Positions 33,581 to 47,004 of a stretch of 64,000 bases of DNA are shown here, one piece after another. Numbering within the stretch: position 1 is the first letter of the stretch; each line of letters starts with the position of its first letter. Source of the stretch: a virus. The notes under the pieces were generated by a model, which did not search any database, was not told the DNA's origin, and worked only from the letters and a program-made list of their open reading frames with translations. A program made the position numbers and the translations under genes. The DNA lies in the IMG/VR virus record IMGVR_UViG_3300021168_000018. One strand, 5' to 3'.

Positions 33581-35062
33581 TCAGTTCACCGCCTTGCTGA
33601 TAGTGGCCTTCCCATTCCCGTTCGGCTTGGGAGTTGGAGGGACTTTATTCTCCGTCATGAAGTCGGCAGGCACGGCGTTTTCGTGCCCGTGTTCTAGTGA
33701 GAGTTGGAGCATTTTGTTGACGTCGTCATCGGTGCAATTTGCGACGTGGATGCGGTTGAGGCCCGTTTTATCCGGCGACAATATGAACATGTCGCCCTTG
33801 CCTAGCAGGTTCTCTGCTCCACGCTGGCCTAGGATGGTCTTGCTGTTCACGGCGTCTGGCATTCTGAACGCGGCGCGACCGAGGAAGTTGACCTTGATTT
33901 TGCCAGACACGACATCGACCGACGGACGCTGCGTGCAAGTGATGACGCAGATTCCAGCGGCGCGGGCCATCTGACTGATAGAGGCCATCCGTTTTGTGAA
34001 CTCCTTTTTCTCCTCCAGCACGATTTCAGCCATTTCGTCGATGACCAGCACGATGTAGTACCATTTCTCGGCCATCTTCTTGGCTGCCTGCTCTTCCAGC
34101 ATCTTGCGAACGTTGCCTTCCTTGGCTTTAAGCGCGGCTTGCTTGAGTTCGTCCGCTTCTTTCTGGAGGCGGTCGTTGAGTTCCTTGATGTTGTTGACCT
34201 TCAGCACATGAAGGTTAGCGGTGCGCCGTTTCATTTCCTGGATAAGGGTTTCCATGACGTTGAGGCAGCCCCAGACCGTGAACTCTGGCGGCATCAGCAT
34301 GTGAGGCAGCCCCTTGAACCTGAACAGCTCCACTTGCTTCGGGTCCACGAACGCGAACCGGAGTTCGCTTGGAGTGCGGATTTCTGCCAGACTGGTAATG
34401 ATTTGCTTGAGCAGTGTAGATTTGCCGGTCCCGGTAGAACCGCCGACCAGCATGTGAGGGAATGTAGCCAAGTCTTCCACGTATGGAGCGCCTTCCGACG
34501 TGAGCCCGAAGTTGAGCGGGAGCGCCATGTCGTAGCGATGCGCCAGAGTGTTCTTGAAGCAGGACTCATGCGTGACAACGAGCCTTTCTCCGTTCGGCAT
34601 GGAAACGCCGACCACTGGCTTGCCGGGGATGCGGCGGATTGTGACCGTCTCGACCGACAATGCCAGCGCGAGGTCCTCATTGAGGGACTTGAGCCTCTTG
34701 ACTCGCGTGAACCGGTCAGGCGTGAATAGGTACTCCGTCACGACCGGCCCTTTGACTATGCCGGTCACTTGACCCGGACAGTCGAAGTTTTTGCAGGACT
34801 CCGTTATCATCTTGACGATTTCTTCCTGCTTCTTGCCGACCGGGTTGAGTTCGCGTGGGAACCGTTTCTTGCCGTCTGGCTTTTTCTGGCCTTCCAACTT
34901 GAACGGTGACGTCGTGCTGCCACAGAGCGGACAGTGACGGCGCTTTGTGAGCAGGTCCTTGTTAACGATGCGGCAATTGCGACAGATTTTGTACTCGCTG
35001 ATTTTGTACATCATTTCTTCAGACAGTTTTTGCATGACTTGTCTCCATTTGTTCTCGCTCAC
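33581..35062 (-). CDS. FtsK/SpoIIIE-family DNA translocase lacking membrane anchor and gamma domain
   Basis: Alpha domain GPVVTEY...EDLALAL...IPGK, GGSTGTGKS, VIDEMAE, ARAAGI...TQRPS; N-terminal CxxC...CxxC. Confidence 0.88.
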   Translation of the reverse strand: MSENKWRQVMQKLSEEMMYKISEYKICRNCRIVNKDLLTKRRHCPLCGSTTSPFKLEGQKKPDGKKRFPRELNPVGKKQEEIVKMITESCKNFDCPGQVTGIVKGPVVTEYLFTPDRFTRVKRLKSLNEDLALALSVETVTIRRIPGKPVVGVSMPNGERLVVTHESCFKNTLAHRYDMALPLNFGLTSEGAPYVEDLATFPHMLVGGSTGTGKSTLLKQIITSLAEIRTPSELRFAFVDPKQVELFRFKGLPHMLMPPEFTVWGCLNVMETLIQEMKRRTANLHVLKVNNIKELNDRLQKEADELKQAALKAKEGNVRKMLEEQAAKKMAEKWYYIVLVIDEMAEIVLEEKKEFTKRMASISQMARAAGICVITCTQRPSVDVVSGKIKVNFLGRAAFRMPDAVNSKTILGQRGAENLLGKGDMFILSPDKTGLNRIHVANCTDDDVNKMLQLSLEHGHENAVPADFMTENKVPPTPKPNGNGKATISKAVN

Positions 35063-35526
35063 CTGCTAGGTAGAGGAGATTGTGGTGGATTCTAGGCTCC
35101 ACCTTGCCTTTGATTGGCCTCAAGCTATCTTGCTGACCGGGACTTCCACCCGGCCTTGAATAGTCGTGATGGCGATTTCCAGTGCGCGACGGCGCTTCTT
35201 GCCTTCCGTATTCTTGAGGATTTTCTCCAGATACGGAATGGCCTCCCGTTTCGTCATGGACTTCGCCTTGATTTTCTTACCTTGTTCGTTACGCATTTTG
35301 TGTTGCTCCTTTCCCGCTTTGGGGAATTCGATTGCTGGTATTGTTGGCCGAACTGATGTGACGCTGTGTCGCGTGACGGAACCCACGCATTTCGTCTCGC
35401 AGGAAACGCTGGATTTCGTCGGACTTTTCCTTGCTGAGATACTGCCCTACTGTTTGACCGTTGACAGTTACTGTGACTGCTTGCATGTGATGCTCCCTTC
35501 CTTTTTAGGTCCTGGGGGACCGATTT

Positions 35527-35976
35527 CTACCGCGTGGCCTTTTGAATCCGGCGTTCTGTTTCCCTGAGTTGCTTCTTGGTCCACGTCCGTGCTGCCGGAT
35601 GCAGCAACCAGAACACCGTTCTACCATCAACGTCGAGTGATGAAAAATATTCGAAATCAATATTCTTATCGGAGAGTGCATAACCAGACTCTCTGAATGT
35701 TTTCCTAGCTACAGCGCCACAAACTAGAATTATGCTTGGATTCAAGCGTGTCAGGTTTTCATGGAGCCATTTTGCGTCCGGCTTTCCGTGGTGGTTGGCA
35801 GACGTGACTAGTTCGCGGCAGCAATTCGTCACGACCAGCCGATGCGCGTTTTCTGGCCCTACGAATTTGTAGAGTCGCTTGCCAGATTTGTTATGCGGGT
35901 TGATTTTGAAATATCGTGGAGCGCGGCCTTCCCTGTCGCCCCACATTGTTTCGAGGACTGCGACGATGAAACTCAC
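35527..35976 (-). CDS. Minimal uracil-DNA-glycosylase-fold protein
   Basis: VTNC, PSIILVCGAVA, LLHPAAR pattern. Confidence 0.45.
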   Translation of the reverse strand: MSFIVAVLETMWGDREGRAPRYFKINPHNKSGKRLYKFVGPENAHRLVVTNCCRELVTSANHHGKPDAKWLHENLTRLNPSIILVCGAVARKTFRESGYALSDKNIDFEYFSSLDVDGRTVFWLLHPAARTWTKKQLRETERRIQKATR

Positions 35977-36353
35977 TTCGGTGCCTCAGTTTCGTCTGCC
36001 ACGTCCGGCATCATTTCTTCCTCTTCAATTTGTTCCTGTTCATGAGTTGGACACAGCAAGTCGTACGGTCCGGGGTCTTGGCTGGCCATGATTGTCCACG
36101 TGTGATTTCCGCGAGTGCAGAAATGCTTGTAGACGTTTGGGTAGAGTTGCTGGTCCATTTGCTCTACCGCTGTCTGCATGATTGTTCGATACGCAGCGAT
36201 TTCGCGGTCCTTACGAACTTGCAAAACCGCACGCAGCATTTTCAAGTCGTCTATCGACATGTCCAATTCGATTTTCATACCCGCTCCTTTACTGCGATGA
36301 TATGCTTGCACTTTCCACGGTGGAATATCCAGTGACGGCAAGAACATTGCCAT
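35973..36353 (-). CDS. Hypothetical protein
   Basis: Coupled ORF. Confidence 0.4.
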   Translation of the reverse strand: MAMFLPSLDIPPWKVQAYHRSKGAGMKIELDMSIDDLKMLRAVLQVRKDREIAAYRTIMQTAVEQMDQQLYPNVYKHFCTRGNHTWTIMASQDPGPYDLLCPTHEQEQIEEEEMMPDVADETEAPK

Positions 36354-36469
36354 TGGCCTTGTGAAGTCCGGCGCACGATATAGTGTTTGCGTGCATCGGA
36401 TTGTGAATTGACGGTGAACCTGCGAACGTGGCCTTGCGTTTCCCGTTTCAGGATTGCGATTGGAGCCAT
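36275..36469 (-). CDS. SWIM zinc-finger protein
   Basis: YIV...WQCSC...CKHI. Confidence 0.6.
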   Translation of the reverse strand: MAPIAILKRETQGHVRRFTVNSQSDARKHYIVRRTSQGQWQCSCRHWIFHRGKCKHIIAVKERV

Positions 36470-36673
36470 TTAGCTCACCGTCCCAAACGTTGTGTAGGTC
36501 ACTGGCCTATCATGCTTTGTTACTGGACGCCAGCGACCTAATATGCCGCCCGAATATTTCAACTCGGATTTCTTTTCGGCCACGGCATGTCTATCGCACC
36601 AATCCCAGTGTGTGCCATTACCGAATTGGCGTTGCGTTGCTGGCCTATTGCATCCTGGTTGATTGCATTTCAT
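36470..36673 (-). CDS. Small hypothetical protein
   Basis: RBS AAGGAAG; CNQPGC...WCDRH. Confidence 0.45.
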   Translation of the reverse strand: MKCNQPGCNRPATQRQFGNGTHWDWCDRHAVAEKKSELKYSGGILGRWRPVTKHDRPVTYTTFGTVS

Positions 36674-37363
36674 GTTACCACTTCCTTACTCCGCCATTTC
36701 AGCGGCGAGGATGTTCACTGTCATTGTAGACACGTGACGTTGTCATTCAGGCGTAAACTCAACCTCGCCCGCCATCGTTGTGAACATCCACGTCGCTGGA
36801 GAAGAAACTTTCCTAGAAACTCATGCGGTATCCGACGCCTGATGCCTTGCGGCATATTCCTAGTCCCGTGTAAGGGGACGTGCGGTATGTCGGGCCTGAT
36901 TCCTTCTCAAGCGAGATGAAATTGTTTGTTCGAAACTCCCATGTCAGCTTGATTTGCGAAACCTTGCGATACATTTAACGTCCGTTCAGTCGGACGGTGG
37001 TAGTTCTTTTACGGGTCCACCACGCCTAAACCTAGGAACACCTGACTGGTAGCGACCACAGAGGGAATTACGCTGACCGAGGGTCCTACACGTTCAATCA
37101 ACCATCCTCTCGATTACCATGCGGCATTGCATGGCTGAATTCTTAAAATCCGATGGAATATTGAACGACTGCCTTGCCTGAGGACGCTGAGCGGCCAACC
37201 AGATTTCCGGCTCGCTACATTGTTCTTACCGTGTGTCGAGTTTTTACGTGCCACTAGCACTGGACTCTAGCACTAAGACCCCGAGCGTGTCCGCGATGGG
37301 TCGTAGAACTTTGTAGGTTGCCTACTTTTCTGGATTGCTGGCTGTAACCCTTAGCGGGGGAAA

Positions 37364-37657
37364 CTAGTTCACCCGCATCTCGCCATTGCGCCACCGGAGT
37401 TTCATGTGGAAACTCCGATGACATTTATCATGGGCGAGAGTTTTGTTGCCCTTGCTGTCGTTGGAGTGGTCCAGGTCCTTGTGATGGATTGTGATAGTCC
37501 TTGAAATTGGACTGCCCTGCCCATCGCCGTCCTTGGCATAACTCTCATACCCTAGCAAGGGTTCCTTGCAGAAGTAACAGTGTTTGTCTCGCAGGAAAAA
37601 ATGGAGGAGTTCCCGACACTTCCGCAATTCTTGGCGTGTAGATTTTCGCATTGACAT
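37364..37657 (-). CDS. Small HNH endonuclease
   Basis: CYFC, TIHHKDLDHSNDSKGNKTLAHDKCHRSFH. Confidence 0.8.
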   Translation of the reverse strand: MSMRKSTRQELRKCRELLHFFLRDKHCYFCKEPLLGYESYAKDGDGQGSPISRTITIHHKDLDHSNDSKGNKTLAHDKCHRSFHMKLRWRNGEMRVN

Positions 37658-38098
37658 TGTACCCTCGTGGGGGTAAGTTTACCCCGCAAAAGGTTACAGC
37701 CACGTCTCTCGTGTTAGGCCAGCGTTCTCAGCTTAATCCCCAATAGGTTGCACGGTGTTGCTATACCTTATGCCTCCCCGCTACTCGTCAACTCCTAGAG
37801 CCTCACGGCCACACTTTTGCGGGTTACGCTACCTTATATAGTGCCTTGCAGCGCGGTAGCTTACAGCGCGGTACTAGCGCACGTCTCCCAGTACATTGTA
37901 CTGGCACCTACTAACTTTCAGCTTTTCGTCCCTAGTGGCCTTAATGCCTTAACCTTGTTTGGGGTCCTGCCCATAGCATTTTGTGTGCGCTACAGGGGTC
38001 AGACTGGCGTACCAGTTTCTGCCTATCAGTGGCCTATCCCCACTAGTGCCGTGTCTCACGACGCGCACGTTTGTCGGACTTTTTGCTGGCCTAGTTAT

Positions 38099-38134
38099 TT
38101 TTCAAAGAACAGCGGTTTGCGGTAGTGCAAACCG
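38099..38134 (-). promoter_or_regulatory. boxB-like hairpin followed by rrn-type boxA (TGTTCTTTGAAAA)
   Basis: 8-bp stem CGGTTTGC/GCAAACCG, then a sequence resembling the TTCTTTGAAAA boxA of many bacterial rRNA leaders. Confidence 0.55.
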
Positions 38135-38154
38135 TACTACTAAACAACACAAAC

Positions 38155-38183
38155 ATTGTACCCTAAAACTAGGCAGTACGCAA
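38155..38183 (-). promoter_or_regulatory. Sigma70-type promoter TTGCGT-N17-TACAAT
   Basis: Near-consensus hexamers with exact 17-bp spacer, pointing into the ncRNA candidate. Confidence 0.7.
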
Positions 38184-38186
38184 GGA

Positions 38187-38498
38187 CTATTTTGACCTTT
38201 GTTGGCGCTCTTTCCACGAGGTCAAAATCCTGCGAGCCGTTTTCGCCTCCGTTTTTAGGTAGGGTAAAACGGCTTCCAGCAAACGGACCGCTTTTCGGCC
38301 CTGAATGCGGTACGACAGCCGCTCTGGGTCGCCGTTCGAATACCACGACCCACCGAATTCTTTTTTGAGCAATTTTGGCAGATTGCCCTTCGTCCTGAGG
38401 CGCATCTGGAAATTGCCTGTTTTCAGGACGTGGAATTTCATACGCTCGTCCAGCGCTCCAGCCAGATATGCCAGATCGCGCTCTTTCCTGAATTTCAT
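38187..38498 (-). CDS. Single-motif LAGLIDADG-like protein, catalytic motif degenerate
   Basis: LAYLAGALDERM (R/M where D/E-G is usual), FGG, and a LLEAVLPYL helix. Confidence 0.65.
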   Translation of the reverse strand: MKFRKERDLAYLAGALDERMKFHVLKTGNFQMRLRTKGNLPKLLKKEFGGSWYSNGDPERLSYRIQGRKAVRLLEAVLPYLKTEAKTARRILTSWKERQQRSK

Positions 38499-39484
38499 AC
38501 TTCCCTCGTCATGAACTCAATGCGCCGTTTTTGGTTGTAGCCTTCCGCATGACGCACGAGCTGCCACGCTCTTTCCCGTCCCAAAGAGTTGATATCTTCG
38601 CCGTTAGGGATATTGGCAATTTTGATGTGCGGTATGATGCCCTTGAAACGGTCGGCGATTTCTACCGTGTCTCTGCGTGCGTCGCCATCTAATGCGATGA
38701 CCAGTTCTTGGACCCACTTTTCATACCTGAGGACATGGTCACGCTGGACATCTGACAGAGACTTGCCTAGGATGCCCATTATCAATGTTCTACCATGTCC
38801 CAGTATTTCCAGCGTGAGCACATTGATTGCAGATTCCACCAGCACAATGACGTTCGGCTTGCGTGTGCCGCCGATGCAATAGACCAAGTCTGATTTCTTA
38901 CTGTACTTGGGATTCCAAAACTTTAGCTCCCGGTCCTTGAATCGCCGGCCTTGCCAGTAGACCACGTCGCCTTCGTCATTGAAAATTGGGAAGATGATAT
39001 ATCCCCAATACTTCCCGCTCGTACAATATCCTATCTTCGCTGTGTCCACTATCCGCTTTGGGATATCTCGGCGCTCTAGATAAGCATAGATATTTTCTCT
39101 GTCTTGCTTCGGCAGTTCACTAACGAAATTGAACTCTTCTGGCAGCTCCACCTCTGCATCTTCGTCTTGACGTATTGTTTCTGGGATGACGTGCTCGAAT
39201 CCGCGAGTATTGAACCACGCCCTGATTCTATACTCTGTGACCCCGCCATGTCCCACATACCATCTACAGCTTGAGTGGAAACAGCACCCGACGCCCTTTT
39301 CTGTATTCCATGCGAATTTCTTTTCGTGGTCGCCACACGCGGGGCAGTCTGCCTTGAATCCCTCTCTGGTCTCGAACACTTGGCTGAAGAACCCTGCTAT
39401 GTCACTCATAGTCTTTCCCGTCTCCACAGCAGAATCGCCATAGGATATTTCGCTATAGCTAGAGAAAGCAGTTCCCATCTCCAT
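38495..39484 (-). CDS. DNA primase (Zn-binding + TOPRIM)
   Basis: CPAC...CFHSSC, YWQGR, LVES, LDGD, GEDIN. Confidence 0.85.
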   Translation of the reverse strand: MEMGTAFSSYSEISYGDSAVETGKTMSDIAGFFSQVFETREGFKADCPACGDHEKKFAWNTEKGVGCCFHSSCRWYVGHGGVTEYRIRAWFNTRGFEHVIPETIRQDEDAEVELPEEFNFVSELPKQDRENIYAYLERRDIPKRIVDTAKIGYCTSGKYWGYIIFPIFNDEGDVVYWQGRRFKDRELKFWNPKYSKKSDLVYCIGGTRKPNVIVLVESAINVLTLEILGHGRTLIMGILGKSLSDVQRDHVLRYEKWVQELVIALDGDARRDTVEIADRFKGIIPHIKIANIPNGEDINSLGRERAWQLVRHAEGYNQKRRIEFMTREV

Positions 39485-39557
39485 GTTGTGTCTGGAGGCT
39501 TATCCCAATCATAGTCATGCACCAAATCACACTGAGTCCATTTGTAAATCCAGTCTA

Positions 39558-40916
39558 CTACCTGTTTCTCCATTTTTCCTTCTCCGCTATGAAATTCCCA
39601 AACTTTTCCCAGACCCTGAACGTGTTGCGGTCTATGTTTATCTTGATGGTTTTCCCCATCATCACGTCTCTAGCAGCGACCATCAAGAGTCTCGCCTGTT
39701 GAGGCTTGAGCTTGGCTTCTGCTTCTGTCTGACACAGTGCTATCATGAAATCCAGCGTCCAGAACTGGGAAATATCTTCCGCTATGTCTTCCGGTCCAAC
39801 ACGCTCCTTGTTAAGAGCGCCGCGATTAGTCTGCGACGCTGTCCACACTGGGATATCCCGCTCCACTGCTAGACCGCGCAAGTCCATGCAAACTTGACCG
39901 ATGCTGAGACGCTGCTCTTCGAAGCGCTCGTTTGGCTTGAATACACGGATGTAGTCCACGAACAGGATATCTATTTCTACACCTGATTGCTTCAGACGCT
40001 CCAGCCAAGACTCAATGTCACTAACCCGACCGCGATTCGTAGGCCATTGCTTAATGAACAGTCTGCCCTTCATCTGGCCGTGAGCCTGGACCATGCGACG
40101 CTGTGCTTGACGCAGTTTCTTCATCAGGTCTGATTTCTCATCGCTGACCTTGGCGTACTGCGTCAATCTCCAAGTTGGGATGGCTGTCATCATGGAATCT
40201 ATGCGCTTGCGATATTTCTTGCCCGACAGTTCCCCGGTCGCTATCGCTACGTTTTTGTTTTGCCACATTGCTCCGGCCGCGAATCTGGCGATGAGAGTAG
40301 ATTTTCCGCCTTTACCTTTTCCAAGAATGACGCCAAGTTCTCCGGCTCCAAGTCCCCCTTCCATACAGTCGTCAAGTGTGGGGCAGTAGTGAGTCCCGAT
40401 AATCCCATATCTATCTTCGAGCCATCTTCCAGGATTAGTCGCGTCTTTCCAATATTCAATACCAAGGTCGAGCTCTGCACCGAGTCCCTTGAGCGAATCG
40501 AATCGCTGTATAGCTCTAACGAAATTTTTACTGTTGACATCTTTCTCTGCCTCCACTAATGCTTTGCGAAACTTTTGCTCCTTGGCGAATCCTACTGCCT
40601 GATGAAGGACCACCTGCCTGTCTTTGAGGTCTTCGTCGTAGAGCGCTTTGATTTCTCGCCGGTATCCAGGCCAGACTTCTGATTTGGATTTTCCGAGATA
40701 GCCTTTGACGATGGCAAGGAGAGTCGGCCTAGAGAGTATAACTTCGGAACGATTGTGTTTTTCATAGACCTCCTTTGTGAGACGCGCGATGTCCACATGC
40801 AACGGGTTCGTAAAATACGACGGCTCGATAATCGTGTACGCCGTTTGTGGTGAACGGACGTAGAGTGCGAGCAGTTTCTTTTGGAACGCATCCCCGAATT
40901 CGAATTCTGATGGCAA
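39558..40916 (-). CDS. DnaB-like replicative helicase
   Basis: GKGKGGKS, FVDY, WTASQTNR, IAEDISQ. Confidence 0.88.
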   Translation of the reverse strand: MPSEFEFGDAFQKKLLALYVRSPQTAYTIIEPSYFTNPLHVDIARLTKEVYEKHNRSEVILSRPTLLAIVKGYLGKSKSEVWPGYRREIKALYDEDLKDRQVVLHQAVGFAKEQKFRKALVEAEKDVNSKNFVRAIQRFDSLKGLGAELDLGIEYWKDATNPGRWLEDRYGIIGTHYCPTLDDCMEGGLGAGELGVILGKGKGGKSTLIARFAAGAMWQNKNVAIATGELSGKKYRKRIDSMMTAIPTWRLTQYAKVSDEKSDLMKKLRQAQRRMVQAHGQMKGRLFIKQWPTNRGRVSDIESWLERLKQSGVEIDILFVDYIRVFKPNERFEEQRLSIGQVCMDLRGLAVERDIPVWTASQTNRGALNKERVGPEDIAEDISQFWTLDFMIALCQTEAEAKLKPQQARLLMVAARDVMMGKTIKINIDRNTFRVWEKFGNFIAEKEKWRNR

Positions 40917-45390: not shown

Positions 45391-47004
45391 TTATCCAGTC
45401 TGGGCTACGGAAACGAAATTGTACCCTGGAGTTCCAAAGTTTAGCAGAGGCACAGATACGGTTCCAAGCAATCCGGTTCTAAATTGGCCAGAAGTGTACC
45501 CTGAATCTGGATTGGGTGTGATTCCTGTGAGAGGACTTCCAAGGGAAACTGTATTGTGAACGTTGTCCAAAGTGACTTTGTAGAGAGCCACGACTAGGCT
45601 GTTATTGACGTCCGTGAAGATATTGAACATTGTGCTCCCACTAGACGTTTTGTCAGTCAGGAGGGCACAGAGTTCTGGCGGTCCTATAGGGAAACTGGTA
45701 TTGGGGTTTCCAGAGAAGAGATAGTCTACTACAGAGCCGTCCGCATAGTTCGTTGTGAAGAATTTGATGGCCGTGATATTGAAAGAAAGGTCGTCTATGA
45801 AATAAGTCACGCAGGAGACTTTCGTGCCTATCATTTGAGACGCTGGAGCCAGTATGTATTGCTGTGTTCCACCGCCGCTAGGCTCTATGGTCGAAACAAA
45901 GGAAAACGATTTGTCGTAGAGCAGCGGGCCTATTTCACCAGCCGGATGCGCTCCCACTATCCCCACAGTGGCATCGAACGTTCCGTTCCTGCGTGAACCG
46001 CTGACTTTAGTTGTGTCTTGTATCCAGCCACTAGTGATACCAGAGCCGGAAATGACAGACGAGCCGCTTCCATTTGAAACGCCATGCACCGTTTCGTCGG
46101 TAGCTAGAACTGCTCTGCTGCCTGATTCGAAGGAGATGTAGTTTCTGACTGTGGACGCCGTGATGCTTCCGAGTGGACCTGCGAGCTGCATCTCCTTGTC
46201 TAAGAATTCTATAGAGAACAGGAACGGGTCATTGGTCAGAAACAGCGCTGGAACGCTGTACTGAGACGTACCGAAACCGAATCCGATTCCACCACCTTCG
46301 AACCAGTTTGCATAGAGGTTCCAAGAGAGAGCCAAGCCTTGCACAAGAAACTCAGATTTCAGTGTCGCTTGCAAAAAGAATCCATTCGATATCCCAGGTA
46401 TCGGCCCTGAAGATTGTAGCTTGCCTGCTCCCAAGTCGTAGATTCTGTATCTGTAGTTGATAGTGGATGGTGGAGTCGGCCAAGAATTGGAAAATCCAGT
46501 GCTGCCGAAACCTTCAGCGTAGGCCAAGTACCTCCCATCCGGAGATAGTGTCAAGCAATCTGGCTGAGAGAAATTGGAAGGCGGAGAAGCGGGAGTCGGT
46601 AGGACGAGACGATAAATCTTGTTACTGCCAGAATCCTGAAGCCGGATATAGACTGGAAATACACCGCTTCGCACCGTGGTATCGATTTCAAATGCGGCTA
46701 TGCGGAATTTGGAAGGACTGGTGAAGAACGGTGGCTTGTCTAGTGGAACTATTCCCGGTGCCGGACTAGTCGGAATCACAGTGTACGTTCCACCGTCGCC
46801 GAGCACGACTATGACTTGCTGCCCTTGGACAACTGGATACGTCGGCAACGCTTGAATAGCATTTCCATCTAGTAAAGCTAGACAGGTCCCATCAGGGTTC
46901 AGAGCGGTGACTACGCCTAGCCTGTACTTGGAAGGATTGGTCCAACCGATTCCTGTCAGTTGGTCCTTGATGGCTTGCTTGATTTTATCTCTGAGACTGC
47001 TCAT
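45391..47004 (-). CDS. Tail-tip / receptor-binding protein candidate
   Basis: N-terminal beta module shared with 47001-47252; propeller-like LSPDGRYLAY; position after tail genes. Confidence 0.5.
   Translation of the reverse strand: MSSLRDKIKQAIKDQLTGIGWTNPSKYRLGVVTALNPDGTCLALLDGNAIQALPTYPVVQGQQVIVVLGDGGTYTVIPTSPAPGIVPLDKPPFFTSPSKFRIAAFEIDTTVRSGVFPVYIRLQDSGSNKIYRLVLPTPASPPSNFSQPDCLTLSPDGRYLAYAEGFGSTGFSNSWPTPPSTINYRYRIYDLGAGKLQSSGPIPGISNGFFLQATLKSEFLVQGLALSWNLYANWFEGGGIGFGFGTSQYSVPALFLTNDPFLFSIEFLDKEMQLAGPLGSITASTVRNYISFESGSRAVLATDETVHGVSNGSGSSVISGSGITSGWIQDTTKVSGSRRNGTFDATVGIVGAHPAGEIGPLLYDKSFSFVSTIEPSGGGTQQYILAPASQMIGTKVSCVTYFIDDLSFNITAIKFFTTNYADGSVVDYLFSGNPNTSFPIGPPELCALLTDKTSSGSTMFNIFTDVNNSLVVALYKVTLDNVHNTVSLGSPLTGITPNPDSGYTSGQFRTGLLGTVSVPLLNFGTPGYNFVSVAQTG

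What the first reader, a model, noticed from the sequence alone, without database searches (positions are those of the whole stretch)
37340..37701. HNH ORF looped out by a 25-nt inverted repeat with an alternative pairing partner
GGCUGUAACC-UUUU-GCGGGG-U-AAAC (37701-37677) just before the ATG pairs with GUUU-C-CCCCGC-UAAG-GGUUACAGCC (37364-37340), which overlaps the stop, so the 97-aa HNH sits in a terminal loop. The same left arm can alternatively pair with CCCGCAAAAG at ~37815-37824 or fold locally (GGGGUAA/UUACCCC) next to the start codon, suggesting a switch controlling HNH translation. The 12-mer AGGGTACAATGT occurs at both the RNA promoter and the HNH start. This could be a mobile HNH cassette that invaded the RNA, or a compact HNH-RNA ribonucleoprotein nuclease (HEARO/OMEGA-like in layout, but with no RuvC or PLMP seen).
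Basis: partly seen in the sequence, partly recalled or inferred. Interest (0 to 1): 0.75.

Follow-up and report, generated by a model that had tools for sequence, protein, structure and literature searches.

The report
Nuclease gene cut from phage RNA
A small DNA-cutting enzyme gene sits inside a hairpin of a large, abundant non-coding RNA of an uncultured soil phage, and RNA data suggest that hairpin and gene are removed to leave a two-piece RNA, much like the spacers some bacteria carry in ribosomal RNA.

Summary
A 97-codon HNH ORF (37657-37364, minus strand) is bracketed by a 27-nt imperfect inverted repeat (37702-37676 / 37365-37339). The same bracket occurs with different sequence in five other distinct ORF-bearing loci.

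The ORF lies in one hairpin of a ~1.1-kb ORF-free RNA gene. That gene has a conserved promoter, leader hairpin and boxA-like element.

This hairpin's content varies between related phages:
- HNH: W, L008, L045, L001, L046, L005.
- A 51-52-codon ORF and no HNH: L040, L041.
- A 21-nt hairpin: L004.
- No hairpin: L010.

In other relatives the HNH lies downstream of the RNA. HNH identity is decoupled from core-gene identity (L004/L007: 63% against 88-89%).

In three soil metatranscriptome libraries, contigs cover only the two RNA halves. They stop within 7 nt of the stem base on both sides, with no joint across the cassette.

Best reading: a mobile, homing-endonuclease-like HNH cassette behaves like an rRNA intervening sequence and is cut out without religation, leaving a fragmented RNA.

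The RNA-guided nuclease idea is not supported. A translation switch is plausible, through 5'-arm/Shine-Dalgarno (SD) pairing rather than the proposed upstream partner.

The scan noted the host RNA separately (e1-5354198); no look-alike on other DNA was listed.

The parts
38155..38183 (-). Promoter of the RNA gene: -35 TTGCGT (38183-38178), 17-nt spacer, -10 TACAAT (38160-38155) within GGGTACAAT
   Evidence: Read. The GGTACAAT-type -10 and the upstream TTGC/TTTAC lie at the same place in 8 loci. RNA contigs begin at 38137-38104, just downstream. The generic sigma-70 scan does not call it.
38099..38134 (-). Leader: boxB-like hairpin (38134-38113) followed by boxA-like TGTTCTTTGAAAA (38111-38099)
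   Evidence: The hairpin is listed. TCTTTGAAAA (one mismatch allowed) lies near the 5' end of the gap in the first 8 loci, preceded by a hairpin of different sequence in each. Boxa-like matches at the same place in L040, L041, L045, L046 and L047. The rrn-like hairpin-then-boxA order is my own knowledge.
37703..38147 (-). 5' piece of the large non-coding RNA (about 445 nt)
   Evidence: No ORF under any stop-codon reassignment. Metatranscriptome contigs, 100% identical: 37708-38123 (X3), 37701-38137 (X4), 37708-38104 (X5). The TSS near 38147 is inferred from the -10.
37676..37702 (-). 5' arm of the bracketing stem (UGGCUGUAACC-UUUU-GCGGGG-U-AAAC)
   Evidence: I1; in MFE and centroid. Equivalent arms of different sequence in L008, L045, L001, L046, L005, L040 and L041.
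37662..37685 (-). Local hairpin GGGGUAA-AC-UUACCCC (37685-37670), which overlaps the 5' arm, then SD GAGGG (37666-37662)
   Evidence: Read. The same hairpin-SD-ATG layout occurs in L008 (GGGTGAA/TTCACCC), L045, L041 (GGGTGA/TCACCC) and L040 (GGGCGA/TCGCCC). The SD is masked in the 5'-only fold.
37364..37657 (-). 97-aa HNH endonuclease ORF (possible true start at the second ATG, 37651)
   Evidence: ORF. PHROG 1271 'HNH endonuclease' E 1.3e-4. Pfam HNH PF01844 matched by 8 of 28 family members, best E 2.2e-4. AFDB Foldseek top hit is a 94-aa HNH protein, E 9.2e-4. Invariant C27 C30 H58 H59 H64 N71 H76 H80. Several homologues start at MRKS.
37339..37365 (-). 3' arm of the bracketing stem (GUUU-C-CCCCGC-UAAG-GGUUACAGCCA), starting in the stop codon
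   Evidence: Contigs of the 3' RNA piece start at 37343, 37340 and 37339.
36814..37338 (-). 3' piece of the large non-coding RNA (about 525 nt)
   Evidence: Contigs 36814-37343 (X3), 36894-37340 (X4), 37123-37339 and 36931-37087 (X5), 36928-37229 (X6). 70% identical to L008 over 450 nt. Its short conserved blocks lie upstream of the HNH in type-B loci. Fold z -2.0.
36700..36798 (-). Long 3'-terminal hairpin after the mature RNA (19-nt arms, 61-nt loop)
   Evidence: I2. Equivalent hairpins of different sequence in L008, L005 and L010. The longest RNA contig stops at 36814, before it. A role as processing site or terminator is inferred.

Best explanation
The 364-nt cassette (37702-37339) is an insertion in the terminal loop of one hairpin of a large phage non-coding RNA. 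It carries a free-standing, homing-endonuclease-like HNH gene.

Proposed sequence of events:
1. The RNA gene is transcribed from its own promoter through an rrn-like hairpin-boxA leader.
2. While only the 5' part exists, the 5' arm and the adjacent local hairpin mask the SD of the HNH.
3. Once the 3' arm, which starts in the stop codon, is made, the long-range stem forms. This closes the host hairpin so that the two RNA halves can fold together, and it exposes the SD.
4. The stem is then cut near its base, most likely by a double-strand-specific RNase such as RNase III. The stem and the HNH mRNA are lost from the stable RNA, which persists as two pieces of about 445 and 525 nt without religation.

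The HNH does not appear to be required at the RNA locus. It most likely maintains itself by cutting HNH-free alleles of this conserved region.

Status of each step:
- Shown: the conserved stem, the variable occupancy of the site, the decoupled divergence of the HNH, and RNA contigs that stop at the stem base.
- Inferred: the enzyme that cuts, the homing activity, and the translation gating.
For: 1. Stem.
- Significant in all 8 ORF-bearing loci (duplex z -4.1 to -6.9; 0-1 of 500 shuffles).
- It is in the MFE of every cassette.
- The outer helices differ in sequence yet stay complementary: W GGCTGTAACC/GGTTACAGCC, L045 GGTATGGAGC/GCTCCATGCC, L001 GCGGGATTTC/GAAATCCCGC, L046 GTGTGGTTCT/AGAACCACAC.

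2. Same site, different content.
- The flanks are shared (a purine-rich GAGA-type run before the stem; CAGAA...CCTTAT after it).
- Between them lie the HNH (6 loci), a 51-52-codon ORF (L040, L041), a 21-nt hairpin (L004), or nothing (L010).

3. Mobility of the HNH.
- L004 and L007 are 88-89% identical in DnaB, primase and FtsK but 63% in HNH. W and L001 are 45% in DnaB but 75% in HNH.
- L004/L007 nucleotide identity drops from 80-99% to 0-76% across the HNH region.
- The HNH lies in the hairpin, after the RNA (L003, L004, L007, L010, L047), or after a SWIM ORF (L011).
- Contigs G001 and G002 carry the RNA and no HNH at E <= 0.01.

4. Removal from the RNA.
- In three RNA libraries, contigs end at 37701-37708 and restart at 37339-37343.
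- There is no joint, no loose end, and none of the laid contigs continues into sequence unlike the window.
- The neighbouring genes are almost uncovered, and two DNA runs hold the whole stretch.

5. Nuclease identity.

6. SD masking.
- P(unpaired SD) is lower in the 5'-only fold than in the full cassette in 8 of 8 loci.
- It is lower than with a shuffled upstream sequence in 8 of 8 loci (ranks 0-0.17, median 0.035).

7. Precedent: the Coxiella 23S rRNA IVS carries an ORF, is excised by RNase III and degraded, and leaves two fragments (PMC4990558).
Against: - The RNA evidence comes from assembled contigs, not raw reads. The tool itself rates coincident contig stops as a weak hint. The libraries may belong to one sampling campaign. 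Exact ends, strand and relative amounts are unknown.
- No HNH pseudogene was seen. All HNH copies keep their catalytic residues and are 60-76% identical. This fits a useful phage gene as well as an active selfish one.
- At 97 aa the protein has no obvious extra DNA-binding domain of the kind site-specific homing enzymes usually need.
- The primase tree is unresolved at depth, so one insertion followed by losses cannot be told from repeated insertions.
- RNase III involvement is untested, and contig ends at the very base of the stem are not the classic within-stem cut.
- The loci are related, so the 8-of-8 counts are not independent.
Confidence: 0.6

Rival explanations
1. The ORF is only looped out. 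The RNA stays one continuous molecule of about 1.45 kb, and the stem serves to bring the two halves together and perhaps to tune HNH translation. The gap in the metatranscriptome contigs is then an assembly or coverage effect.
For: The stem is conserved, and it would serve this purpose equally well. Contigs cannot show true RNA ends, and low local coverage breaks them (caveats). Strongly structured RNA (z -6.8) can be under-represented in libraries.
Against: Three libraries break at both bases of the stem within 7 nt, and the whole 357-nt interior is missing, not only the paired arms. The arms share no 31-mer, so the repeat itself should not break a k=31 assembly; this last point is my inference.
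Confidence: 0.2
2. The HNH is a domesticated, useful phage gene, for example for host DNA breakdown, replication or recombination, or counter-defence, possibly working with the SWIM zinc-finger ORF. It uses the strongly transcribed, antiterminated RNA operon for expression and is shuffled by ordinary recombination rather than by homing.
For: All copies are intact and 60-76% identical, with an invariant N-terminal helix and an invariant loop SYAKDGDGQGSP. About 274 clusters of similar stand-alone ~100-aa proteins exist. Many lie in ordinary coding regions, several next to a SWIM ORF (L009, L011, L014, L032). The N-terminal motif is kept in relatives that have no RNA next to them.
Against: It is absent from two RNA-bearing contigs. 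Its allele is swapped between near-identical phages, with mosaic boundaries, as described for phage nuclease genes at exchange boundaries (abstract of PMC10448857). Those two contigs are only 62% and 72% complete.
Confidence: 0.25
3. The HNH and the large RNA form a ribonucleoprotein nuclease in which the RNA guides or activates the HNH (HEARO/OMEGA-like in layout).
For: Among close homologues (54% identity or more) with enough context, the gene is inside or directly after the RNA gene in most loci. The N-terminal helix is arginine/lysine-rich and invariant.
Against: The RNA occurs with no HNH at the locus (L040, L041). The HNH family, with the same N-terminal helix, occurs without an adjacent RNA. 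In L011 it follows a SWIM ORF. There is no Rfam HEARO or other match, no RuvC or PLMP, and no variable guide-like segment was looked for or seen.
Confidence: 0.05
4. The cassette is a self-splicing or protein-spliced intron (group I, group II, or bulge-helix-bulge type) in the RNA gene, and the two halves are ligated.
For: HNH genes often sit in loops of group I introns in phages (my own knowledge; scan notes). Rfam can miss divergent introns.
Against: Only about 70 nt of the cassette is non-coding, too little for a ribozyme core (inference from size). Rfam gives nothing at E <= 1. No contig joins the halves, and no loose end was reported.
Confidence: 0.03

Closest known systems
Intervening sequences (IVS) of bacterial 23S rRNA, e.g. 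the 428-nt Coxiella burnetii IVS in helix 45 with the S23p ORF (PMC4990558)
   Same: An insertion takes the place of the tip of a helix in a stable RNA. Its ends pair into a long stem. It can carry an ORF. Its distribution among relatives is sporadic. It is excised without religation, so the RNA works as fragments, and the excised part is degraded. All of these are matched here by sequence and by the contig pattern.
   Different: The host RNA is not rRNA but an unclassified phage RNA of about 1 kb (no Rfam match). The ORF is an intact, conserved HNH nuclease with a good SD, not a decaying S23p-type ORF. RNase III dependence is untested here. The SD-masking arrangement has no counterpart that I know of in IVSs.
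Homing-endonuclease-bearing insertions in rRNA genes (CPR bacteria; PMC11270868) and HNH or LAGLIDADG ORFs looped out of peripheral helices of group I introns
   Same: A nuclease ORF sits in a loop of a structured RNA gene so that the RNA fold is preserved. The nuclease is thought to drive spread into the conserved RNA gene.
   Different: No intron ribozyme surrounds the ORF and no ligated product is seen. The enzyme is a minimal 97-aa HNH rather than a LAGLIDADG protein.
Free-standing phage homing endonucleases next to conserved genes (T4 seg and mob genes, e.g. SegB in the tRNA cluster, PMC2330249; nuclease genes at exchange boundaries, PMC10448857)
   Same: Sporadic presence, allele swapping between close phages, mosaic boundaries, and a location beside or within a conserved RNA gene region.
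   Different: Here the gene lies inside the RNA gene itself and is bracketed by an RNA stem. Cleavage activity and target are unknown.
IscB/HEARO (OMEGA) RNA-guided nucleases
   Same: Only the layout is shared: an HNH ORF adjacent to a large structured RNA.
   Different: IscB is about 400-500 aa with RuvC, HNH and PLMP domains, and its omega RNA carries a guide. Here the protein is 97 aa with HNH only. RNA and protein occur independently of each other, and Rfam HEARO does not match.

Membership tests
HNH (beta-beta-alpha-metal) endonuclease superfamily | Catalytic His ... Asn ... His motif | tested here: met
   H58/H59, N71, H76 and H80 are invariant and H84 nearly invariant across 28 homologues. 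They are also kept in distant members.
HNH (beta-beta-alpha-metal) endonuclease superfamily | Zinc-binding Cys pairs flanking the core | tested here: met
   C27 and C30 are invariant and C79 nearly invariant.
HNH (beta-beta-alpha-metal) endonuclease superfamily | Match to a family profile | tested here: met
   PHROG 1271 E 1.3e-4. Pfam PF01844 is matched by 8 of 28 members, best E 2.2e-4, although the window's own protein scores below threshold.
HNH (beta-beta-alpha-metal) endonuclease superfamily | Two strands plus a helix around the metal site | tested here: met
Homing endonuclease gene (free-standing) | Sporadic presence among close relatives at a conserved site | tested here: met
   The same hairpin holds the HNH, another ORF, or none. 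G001 and G002 have no HNH.
Homing endonuclease gene (free-standing) | History decoupled from that of the host genome | tested here: met
   Identity matrices and the mosaic profile of L004 against L007. The primase tree is too poorly resolved to count events.
Homing endonuclease gene (free-standing) | Site-specific cleavage of the allele that lacks the gene | not testable with these tools
   Needs purified protein and DNA substrates.
rRNA-type intervening sequence (IVS) | The insert replaces the tip of a conserved helix of a stable RNA and its ends form an extended stem | tested here: met
rRNA-type intervening sequence (IVS) | Excised after transcription without religation, leaving a fragmented RNA | tested here: inconclusive
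   Contigs of three RNA libraries stop at both stem bases with no joint. This is consistent, but contigs cannot prove ends.
rRNA-type intervening sequence (IVS) | Cleavage by RNase III | not testable with these tools
   Inferred from the 20-27-bp stem and from precedent (PMC4990558).
rRNA-type intervening sequence (IVS) | The host molecule is ribosomal RNA | tested here: not met
   No Rfam family, rRNA included, matches 35500-39500 at E <= 1.
Group I / group II intron | Ribozyme core recognisable by a covariance model | tested here: not met
   No Rfam match at E <= 1. Only about 70 nt of the cassette is non-coding.
Group I / group II intron | Ligated flanks in the RNA | tested here: not met
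   No joint in any of four RNA libraries (table 5). The caveat about contigs applies.
IscB-omega RNA (HEARO/OMEGA) | Protein with RuvC, bridge helix, HNH and PLMP domains | tested here: not met
   97 aa, HNH only.
IscB-omega RNA (HEARO/OMEGA) | Adjacent RNA matches the HEARO / omega RNA model | tested here: not met
   No Rfam match.
IscB-omega RNA (HEARO/OMEGA) | Obligate co-occurrence of protein and RNA | tested here: not met
   The RNA occurs without the HNH. The HNH family occurs without an adjacent RNA.

The most novel reading that the evidence does not exclude
The HNH is not merely a passenger. After release from the precursor, the protein binds the two-piece RNA through its invariant arginine/lysine-rich N-terminal helix, either at the leader hairpin or at the remains of the bracketing stem. 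The RNA would then direct or license DNA cutting, giving a minimal HNH-only RNA-dependent nuclease. The variable position of the gene would only reflect different ways of co-expressing the two partners.
Probability: 0.05. Interest if true: 0.9.

Novelty: new variant of a known kind. Interest (0 to 1): 0.62.

Why it matters
Three points make this worth following up.

1. It would extend the intervening-sequence phenomenon beyond ribosomal RNA. Until now this phenomenon (an ORF-bearing stem-loop cut out of a stable RNA, leaving working fragments) is, to my knowledge, known for ribosomal RNA. Here the host would be a phage-encoded non-coding RNA of unknown function.

2. It shows that this RNA is real. 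The RNA is abundant enough in soil metatranscriptomes to be assembled when its phage's mRNAs are not. In the close pair L004/L007 it is also more conserved than the neighbouring replication genes. That makes the RNA itself a strong target for study.

3. The natural series of alleles marks a permissive insertion site. The alleles carry the HNH, another ORF, a bare hairpin, or no hairpin. This gives a ready-made experiment on how a nuclease gene colonises an RNA gene without destroying it, including a conserved arrangement that may hold back translation until the RNA stem has formed.

Tried and rejected
- Rfam at E <= 1 on 35500-39500: no family.
- tRNA/tmRNA scan: none.
- blastn against 50,697 phage records: no match.
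- Pfam on the window's own HNH: nothing at E <= 0.01.
- PDB sequence-profile search: only chance-level rows, best E 0.13.
- Metagenome scan with the HNH profile: only 6 distant loci, of no use for the RNA.
- Viral-contig scan with a primase profile: only the two contigs already found, plus one distant one.
- Alternative genetic codes: no long ORF appears in the RNA region under TGA, TAG or TAA reassignment.
- Upstream alternative partner of the 5' arm: not better than shuffles in W, L008, L045 and L005. Only L001 has a notable partner, and it lies at a non-homologous place.
- The 12-mer as an internal promoter: there is no -35 at 17 nt, and the expected start would fall after both ATGs. It is not conserved, so I rejected it as a shared feature.
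- The small ORFs of L040 and L041 are not significantly similar to each other (E 2.4). One has a single 92%-identical relative. Their coding status is open.
- RNA-run search with the cassette alone (37344-37700): no RNA holder was listed. This is not evidence either way.
- In the laid RNA contigs, the parts of 35000-40000 outside the two RNA halves had almost no cover.
- Column-wise covariation counting on the stem was not attempted. The helices differ in length and register between loci, so duplex-versus-shuffle tests were used instead.
- The primase tree could not decide between one and several insertion events.
Full report
**Setting**

The coding strand is the minus strand. The order is DnaB (40916-39558), primase (39484-38495), a 103-aa LAGLIDADG-like ORF (38498-38187), and then about 1.45 kb with a single ORF of note, the 97-aa ORF at 37657-37364. 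After that come small ORFs (one with a SWIM finger), a UDG-family gene and an FtsK-like gene. No stop-codon reassignment opens a long frame in the gap. Rfam gives nothing at E <= 1 and no deposited phage is similar.

**The observation**

The inverted repeat is real: 37339-37365 against 37676-37702, 27 nt, 89% complementary. The 3' arm begins in the stop codon. The 364-nt cassette folds far better than shuffles (z -6.8, 0 of 100), and the bracketing stem is in both the MFE and the centroid structure.

The ORF is an HNH nuclease:
- The invariant residues are C27, C30, H58, H59, H64, N71, H76 and H80.
- PHROG 1271 matches at E 1.3e-4.
- Pfam HNH is matched by 8 of 28 homologues.
- The AF2 model has pLDDT 82.8, and its best AFDB match is a 94-aa HNH protein.

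**Relatives**

The protein has 27 homologues at 51-76% identity. Their contigs show the same synteny of DnaB, primase, LAGLIDADG-like ORF, a long ORF-poor gap, and FtsK.

Every gap begins with the same leader (and for boxA):
- a promoter with a GGTACAAT-type -10;
- a hairpin whose sequence differs from locus to locus;
- a boxA-like GCTCTTTGAAAA.

That hairpin-then-boxA order is the order seen in rRNA operon leaders (my own knowledge). It agrees with scan note e1-5354198.

Outside the leader the RNA has diverged beyond blastn in most pairs. Short conserved blocks remain, and the blocks that lie downstream of the HNH in W, L001 and L005 lie upstream of it in L003, L004, L007 and L010. So there are two layouts:
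- Type A, with the HNH inside the RNA: W, L008, L045, L001/L002, L005/L006, L046.
- Type B, with an uninterrupted RNA followed by the HNH and further ORFs: L003, L004, L007, L010, L047.

In L011 the HNH follows a SWIM ORF in a coding-dense stretch.

**The stem is conserved by complementarity, not by sequence**

In all six distinct type-A loci, the region upstream of the SD pairs with the region around the stop. The outer helices are unrelated in sequence:
- W: GGCTGTAACC/GGTTACAGCC
- L045: GGTATGGAGC/GCTCCATGCC
- L001: GCGGGATTTC/GAAATCCCGC
- L046: GTGTGGTTCT/AGAACCACAC
- L005: AGATTCC-CCGGAGGGC/GCCCTCGGG-GGAATCT

. Duplex energies beat 499-500 of 500 shuffles in each locus (z -4.1 to -6.9). 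The stem is in the MFE of each full cassette.

**The site is a variable hairpin of the RNA**

A motif scan of viral contigs found two RNA-bearing relatives, L040 (G001) and L041 (G002). They have the same synteny and no HNH anywhere in the contig at E <= 0.01. The contigs are 62% and 72% complete.

The flanks of the stem are shared across loci: a purine-rich GAGA-type run before it, and CAGAA...CCTTAT after it. Between these flanks:
- L040 and L041 carry a 244-247-nt stem-bracketed insert with an SD-preceded ORF of 51-52 codons.
- L004 has a 21-nt hairpin.
- L007 has a 32-nt imperfect hairpin that is not its MFE.
- L010 has nothing.

W, L008, L045, L040 and L041 even share the inner stem (CGGG-N-GAAAC / GTTTC-C-CCCG) and the local hairpin before the SD, although the ORFs differ. 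So the ORF content of this hairpin has been exchanged. Whether the small ORFs are coding is open.

**The HNH behaves as a mobile gene**

- L004 and L007 are 88-89% identical in DnaB, primase and FtsK, and 80-99% in RNA windows. Their HNH proteins are 63% identical and belong to different subtypes, one with a YGRKNHPDC insert.
- Nucleotide identity between L004 and L007 collapses across the HNH region, and also across the LAGLIDADG-like ORF.
- W and L001 are 45% identical in DnaB but 75% in HNH.
- All HNH pairs lie at 60-76%.

The wider family has about 274 clusters at E <= 1e-3, mostly stand-alone proteins of about 100 aa. Distant members keep the invariant N-terminal helix but lie in dense coding regions with no boxA and no long gap. 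The primase tree is too poorly resolved to count insertion events.

**RNA evidence**

Seven RNA libraries hold part of 36600-38300, and two DNA runs hold all of it. Contigs of four soil metatranscriptomes were laid on 35000-40000. Those covering the RNA gene lie only on the two RNA halves, at 100% identity:
- X3: 37708-38123 and 36814-37343
- X4: 37701-38137 and 36894-37340
- X5: 37708-38104, 37123-37339 and 36931-37087
- X6: 37902-38128 and 36928-37229

Points that bear on the reading:
- No contig covers 37344-37700.
- There is no joint and no loose end, and none of the laid contigs continues into unlike sequence.
- The flanking protein genes are uncovered except for one 151-nt piece of depth 2.2 in primase (38956-39106, X3).
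- In three libraries the breaks fall within 7 nt of the two bases of the stem (37702 and 37339).

The tool rates coincident contig stops as a weak hint, and the libraries may be one campaign. Even so, the coincidence on both sides with an independently predicted structure is hard to ascribe to chance. It implies a stable RNA in two pieces from which stem and ORF are removed. The 5' contig ends fit a start just downstream of the -10. The 3' end near 36814 lies just before another long, covarying hairpin (36798-36700).

**Mechanism**

The closest parallel is the intervening sequence of 23S rRNA. The Coxiella IVS sits in helix 45, carries an ORF, is excised by RNase III and then degraded, and leaves two rRNA fragments (PMC4990558). 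[quoted passage not shown]

I therefore read the cassette as an IVS-like insertion that carries a homing-type HNH. RNase III is inferred, not shown.

**Translation control**

In 8 of 8 ORF-bearing loci the SD is less accessible when only the 5' part is folded than in the full cassette. It is also less accessible than with a shuffled upstream sequence (ranks 0-0.17, median 0.035). The 5' arm carries an anti-SD:
- L001: GAUUUCUCC/GGAGAAAUC
- L046: 12 bp
- L005: UUCCUCC/GGAGGAA
- L008: CCUCC/GGAGG

These pairings were read. This supports a switch in which formation of the long-range stem frees the SD. It remains a hypothesis, and the loci are not independent.

The shared 12-mer is specific to this phage.

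**Verdict**

- The mobile-cassette reading is supported and sharpened to an excised, IVS-like element.
- The RNA-guided nuclease reading is unsupported.
- It is a new variant of known kinds (IVS; nuclease ORFs in RNA loops) in a new and apparently abundant host RNA.

Noticed in passing
38187-38498 (minus strand); L004:2244-2585, L007:2378-2713: The 103-aa LAGLIDADG-like ORF just upstream of the RNA promoter matches PHROG 5046 (annotated as HNH endonuclease, E 5.8e-5). Between the close phages L004 and L007 it is only about 50% identical in nucleotides, while its flanks are 80-98% identical. It therefore looks like a second swapped nuclease-type gene at the other edge of the RNA gene.
   Followed up: partly
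36700-36798 (minus strand): A long 3'-terminal hairpin (19-nt arms, 61-nt loop) follows the RNA and covaries in L008, L005 and L010. The longest RNA contig stops at 36814, just before it. It may be a second processing site or a terminator. In L010 the HNH starts about 25 nt after it.
   Followed up: partly
L040:3196-3351; L041:5017-5175 (minus strand): In two RNA loci without an HNH, the same hairpin holds a stem-bracketed insert with an SD-preceded ORF of 51-52 codons for a basic peptide. The two peptides are not significantly similar to each other, and one has a single 92%-identical relative.
   Followed up: partly
36822-36842, 36879-36899, 37118-37138: The 3' RNA piece holds two to three copies of a module TCAGGC..ATACCGCA..(hairpin)..CTAGGAA. 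The same module is among the best-conserved blocks across loci, and it served to find L040 and L041.
   Followed up: partly
L001:3631-3656 and L001:4676-4703: A 28-nt stretch (GTCTAAGAAAAGGAGAAA...) just upstream of the HNH start is repeated at 93% just upstream of the FtsK start. It may be a trace of the HNH having moved together with the ribosome-binding region of the first gene after the RNA.
   Followed up: no
L009, L011, L014, L032; window 36275-36469: A small SWIM zinc-finger ORF lies directly beside HNH homologues in four other loci. In the window it lies about 900 nt downstream of the HNH. The two may be functionally linked.
   Followed up: no
45416-45427 (minus strand): A third, 1-mismatch copy of AGGGTACAAT(G/T)T occurs here. 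Together with the RNA promoter, this suggests that GGGTACAAT is the phage's -10 consensus.
   Followed up: no
37392-37420 (minus strand): A hairpin of about 12-15 bp (CGGAGUUUC..GAAACUCCG) lies inside the HNH ORF, over the conserved CHRSFH codons. It is not kept in L008.
   Followed up: no
L004:2672-3547 versus L007: In 100-nt windows the RNA of these two phages is 78-99% identical, often above the 74-88% of the adjacent primase gene. The RNA sequence itself is under strong constraint.
   Followed up: partly
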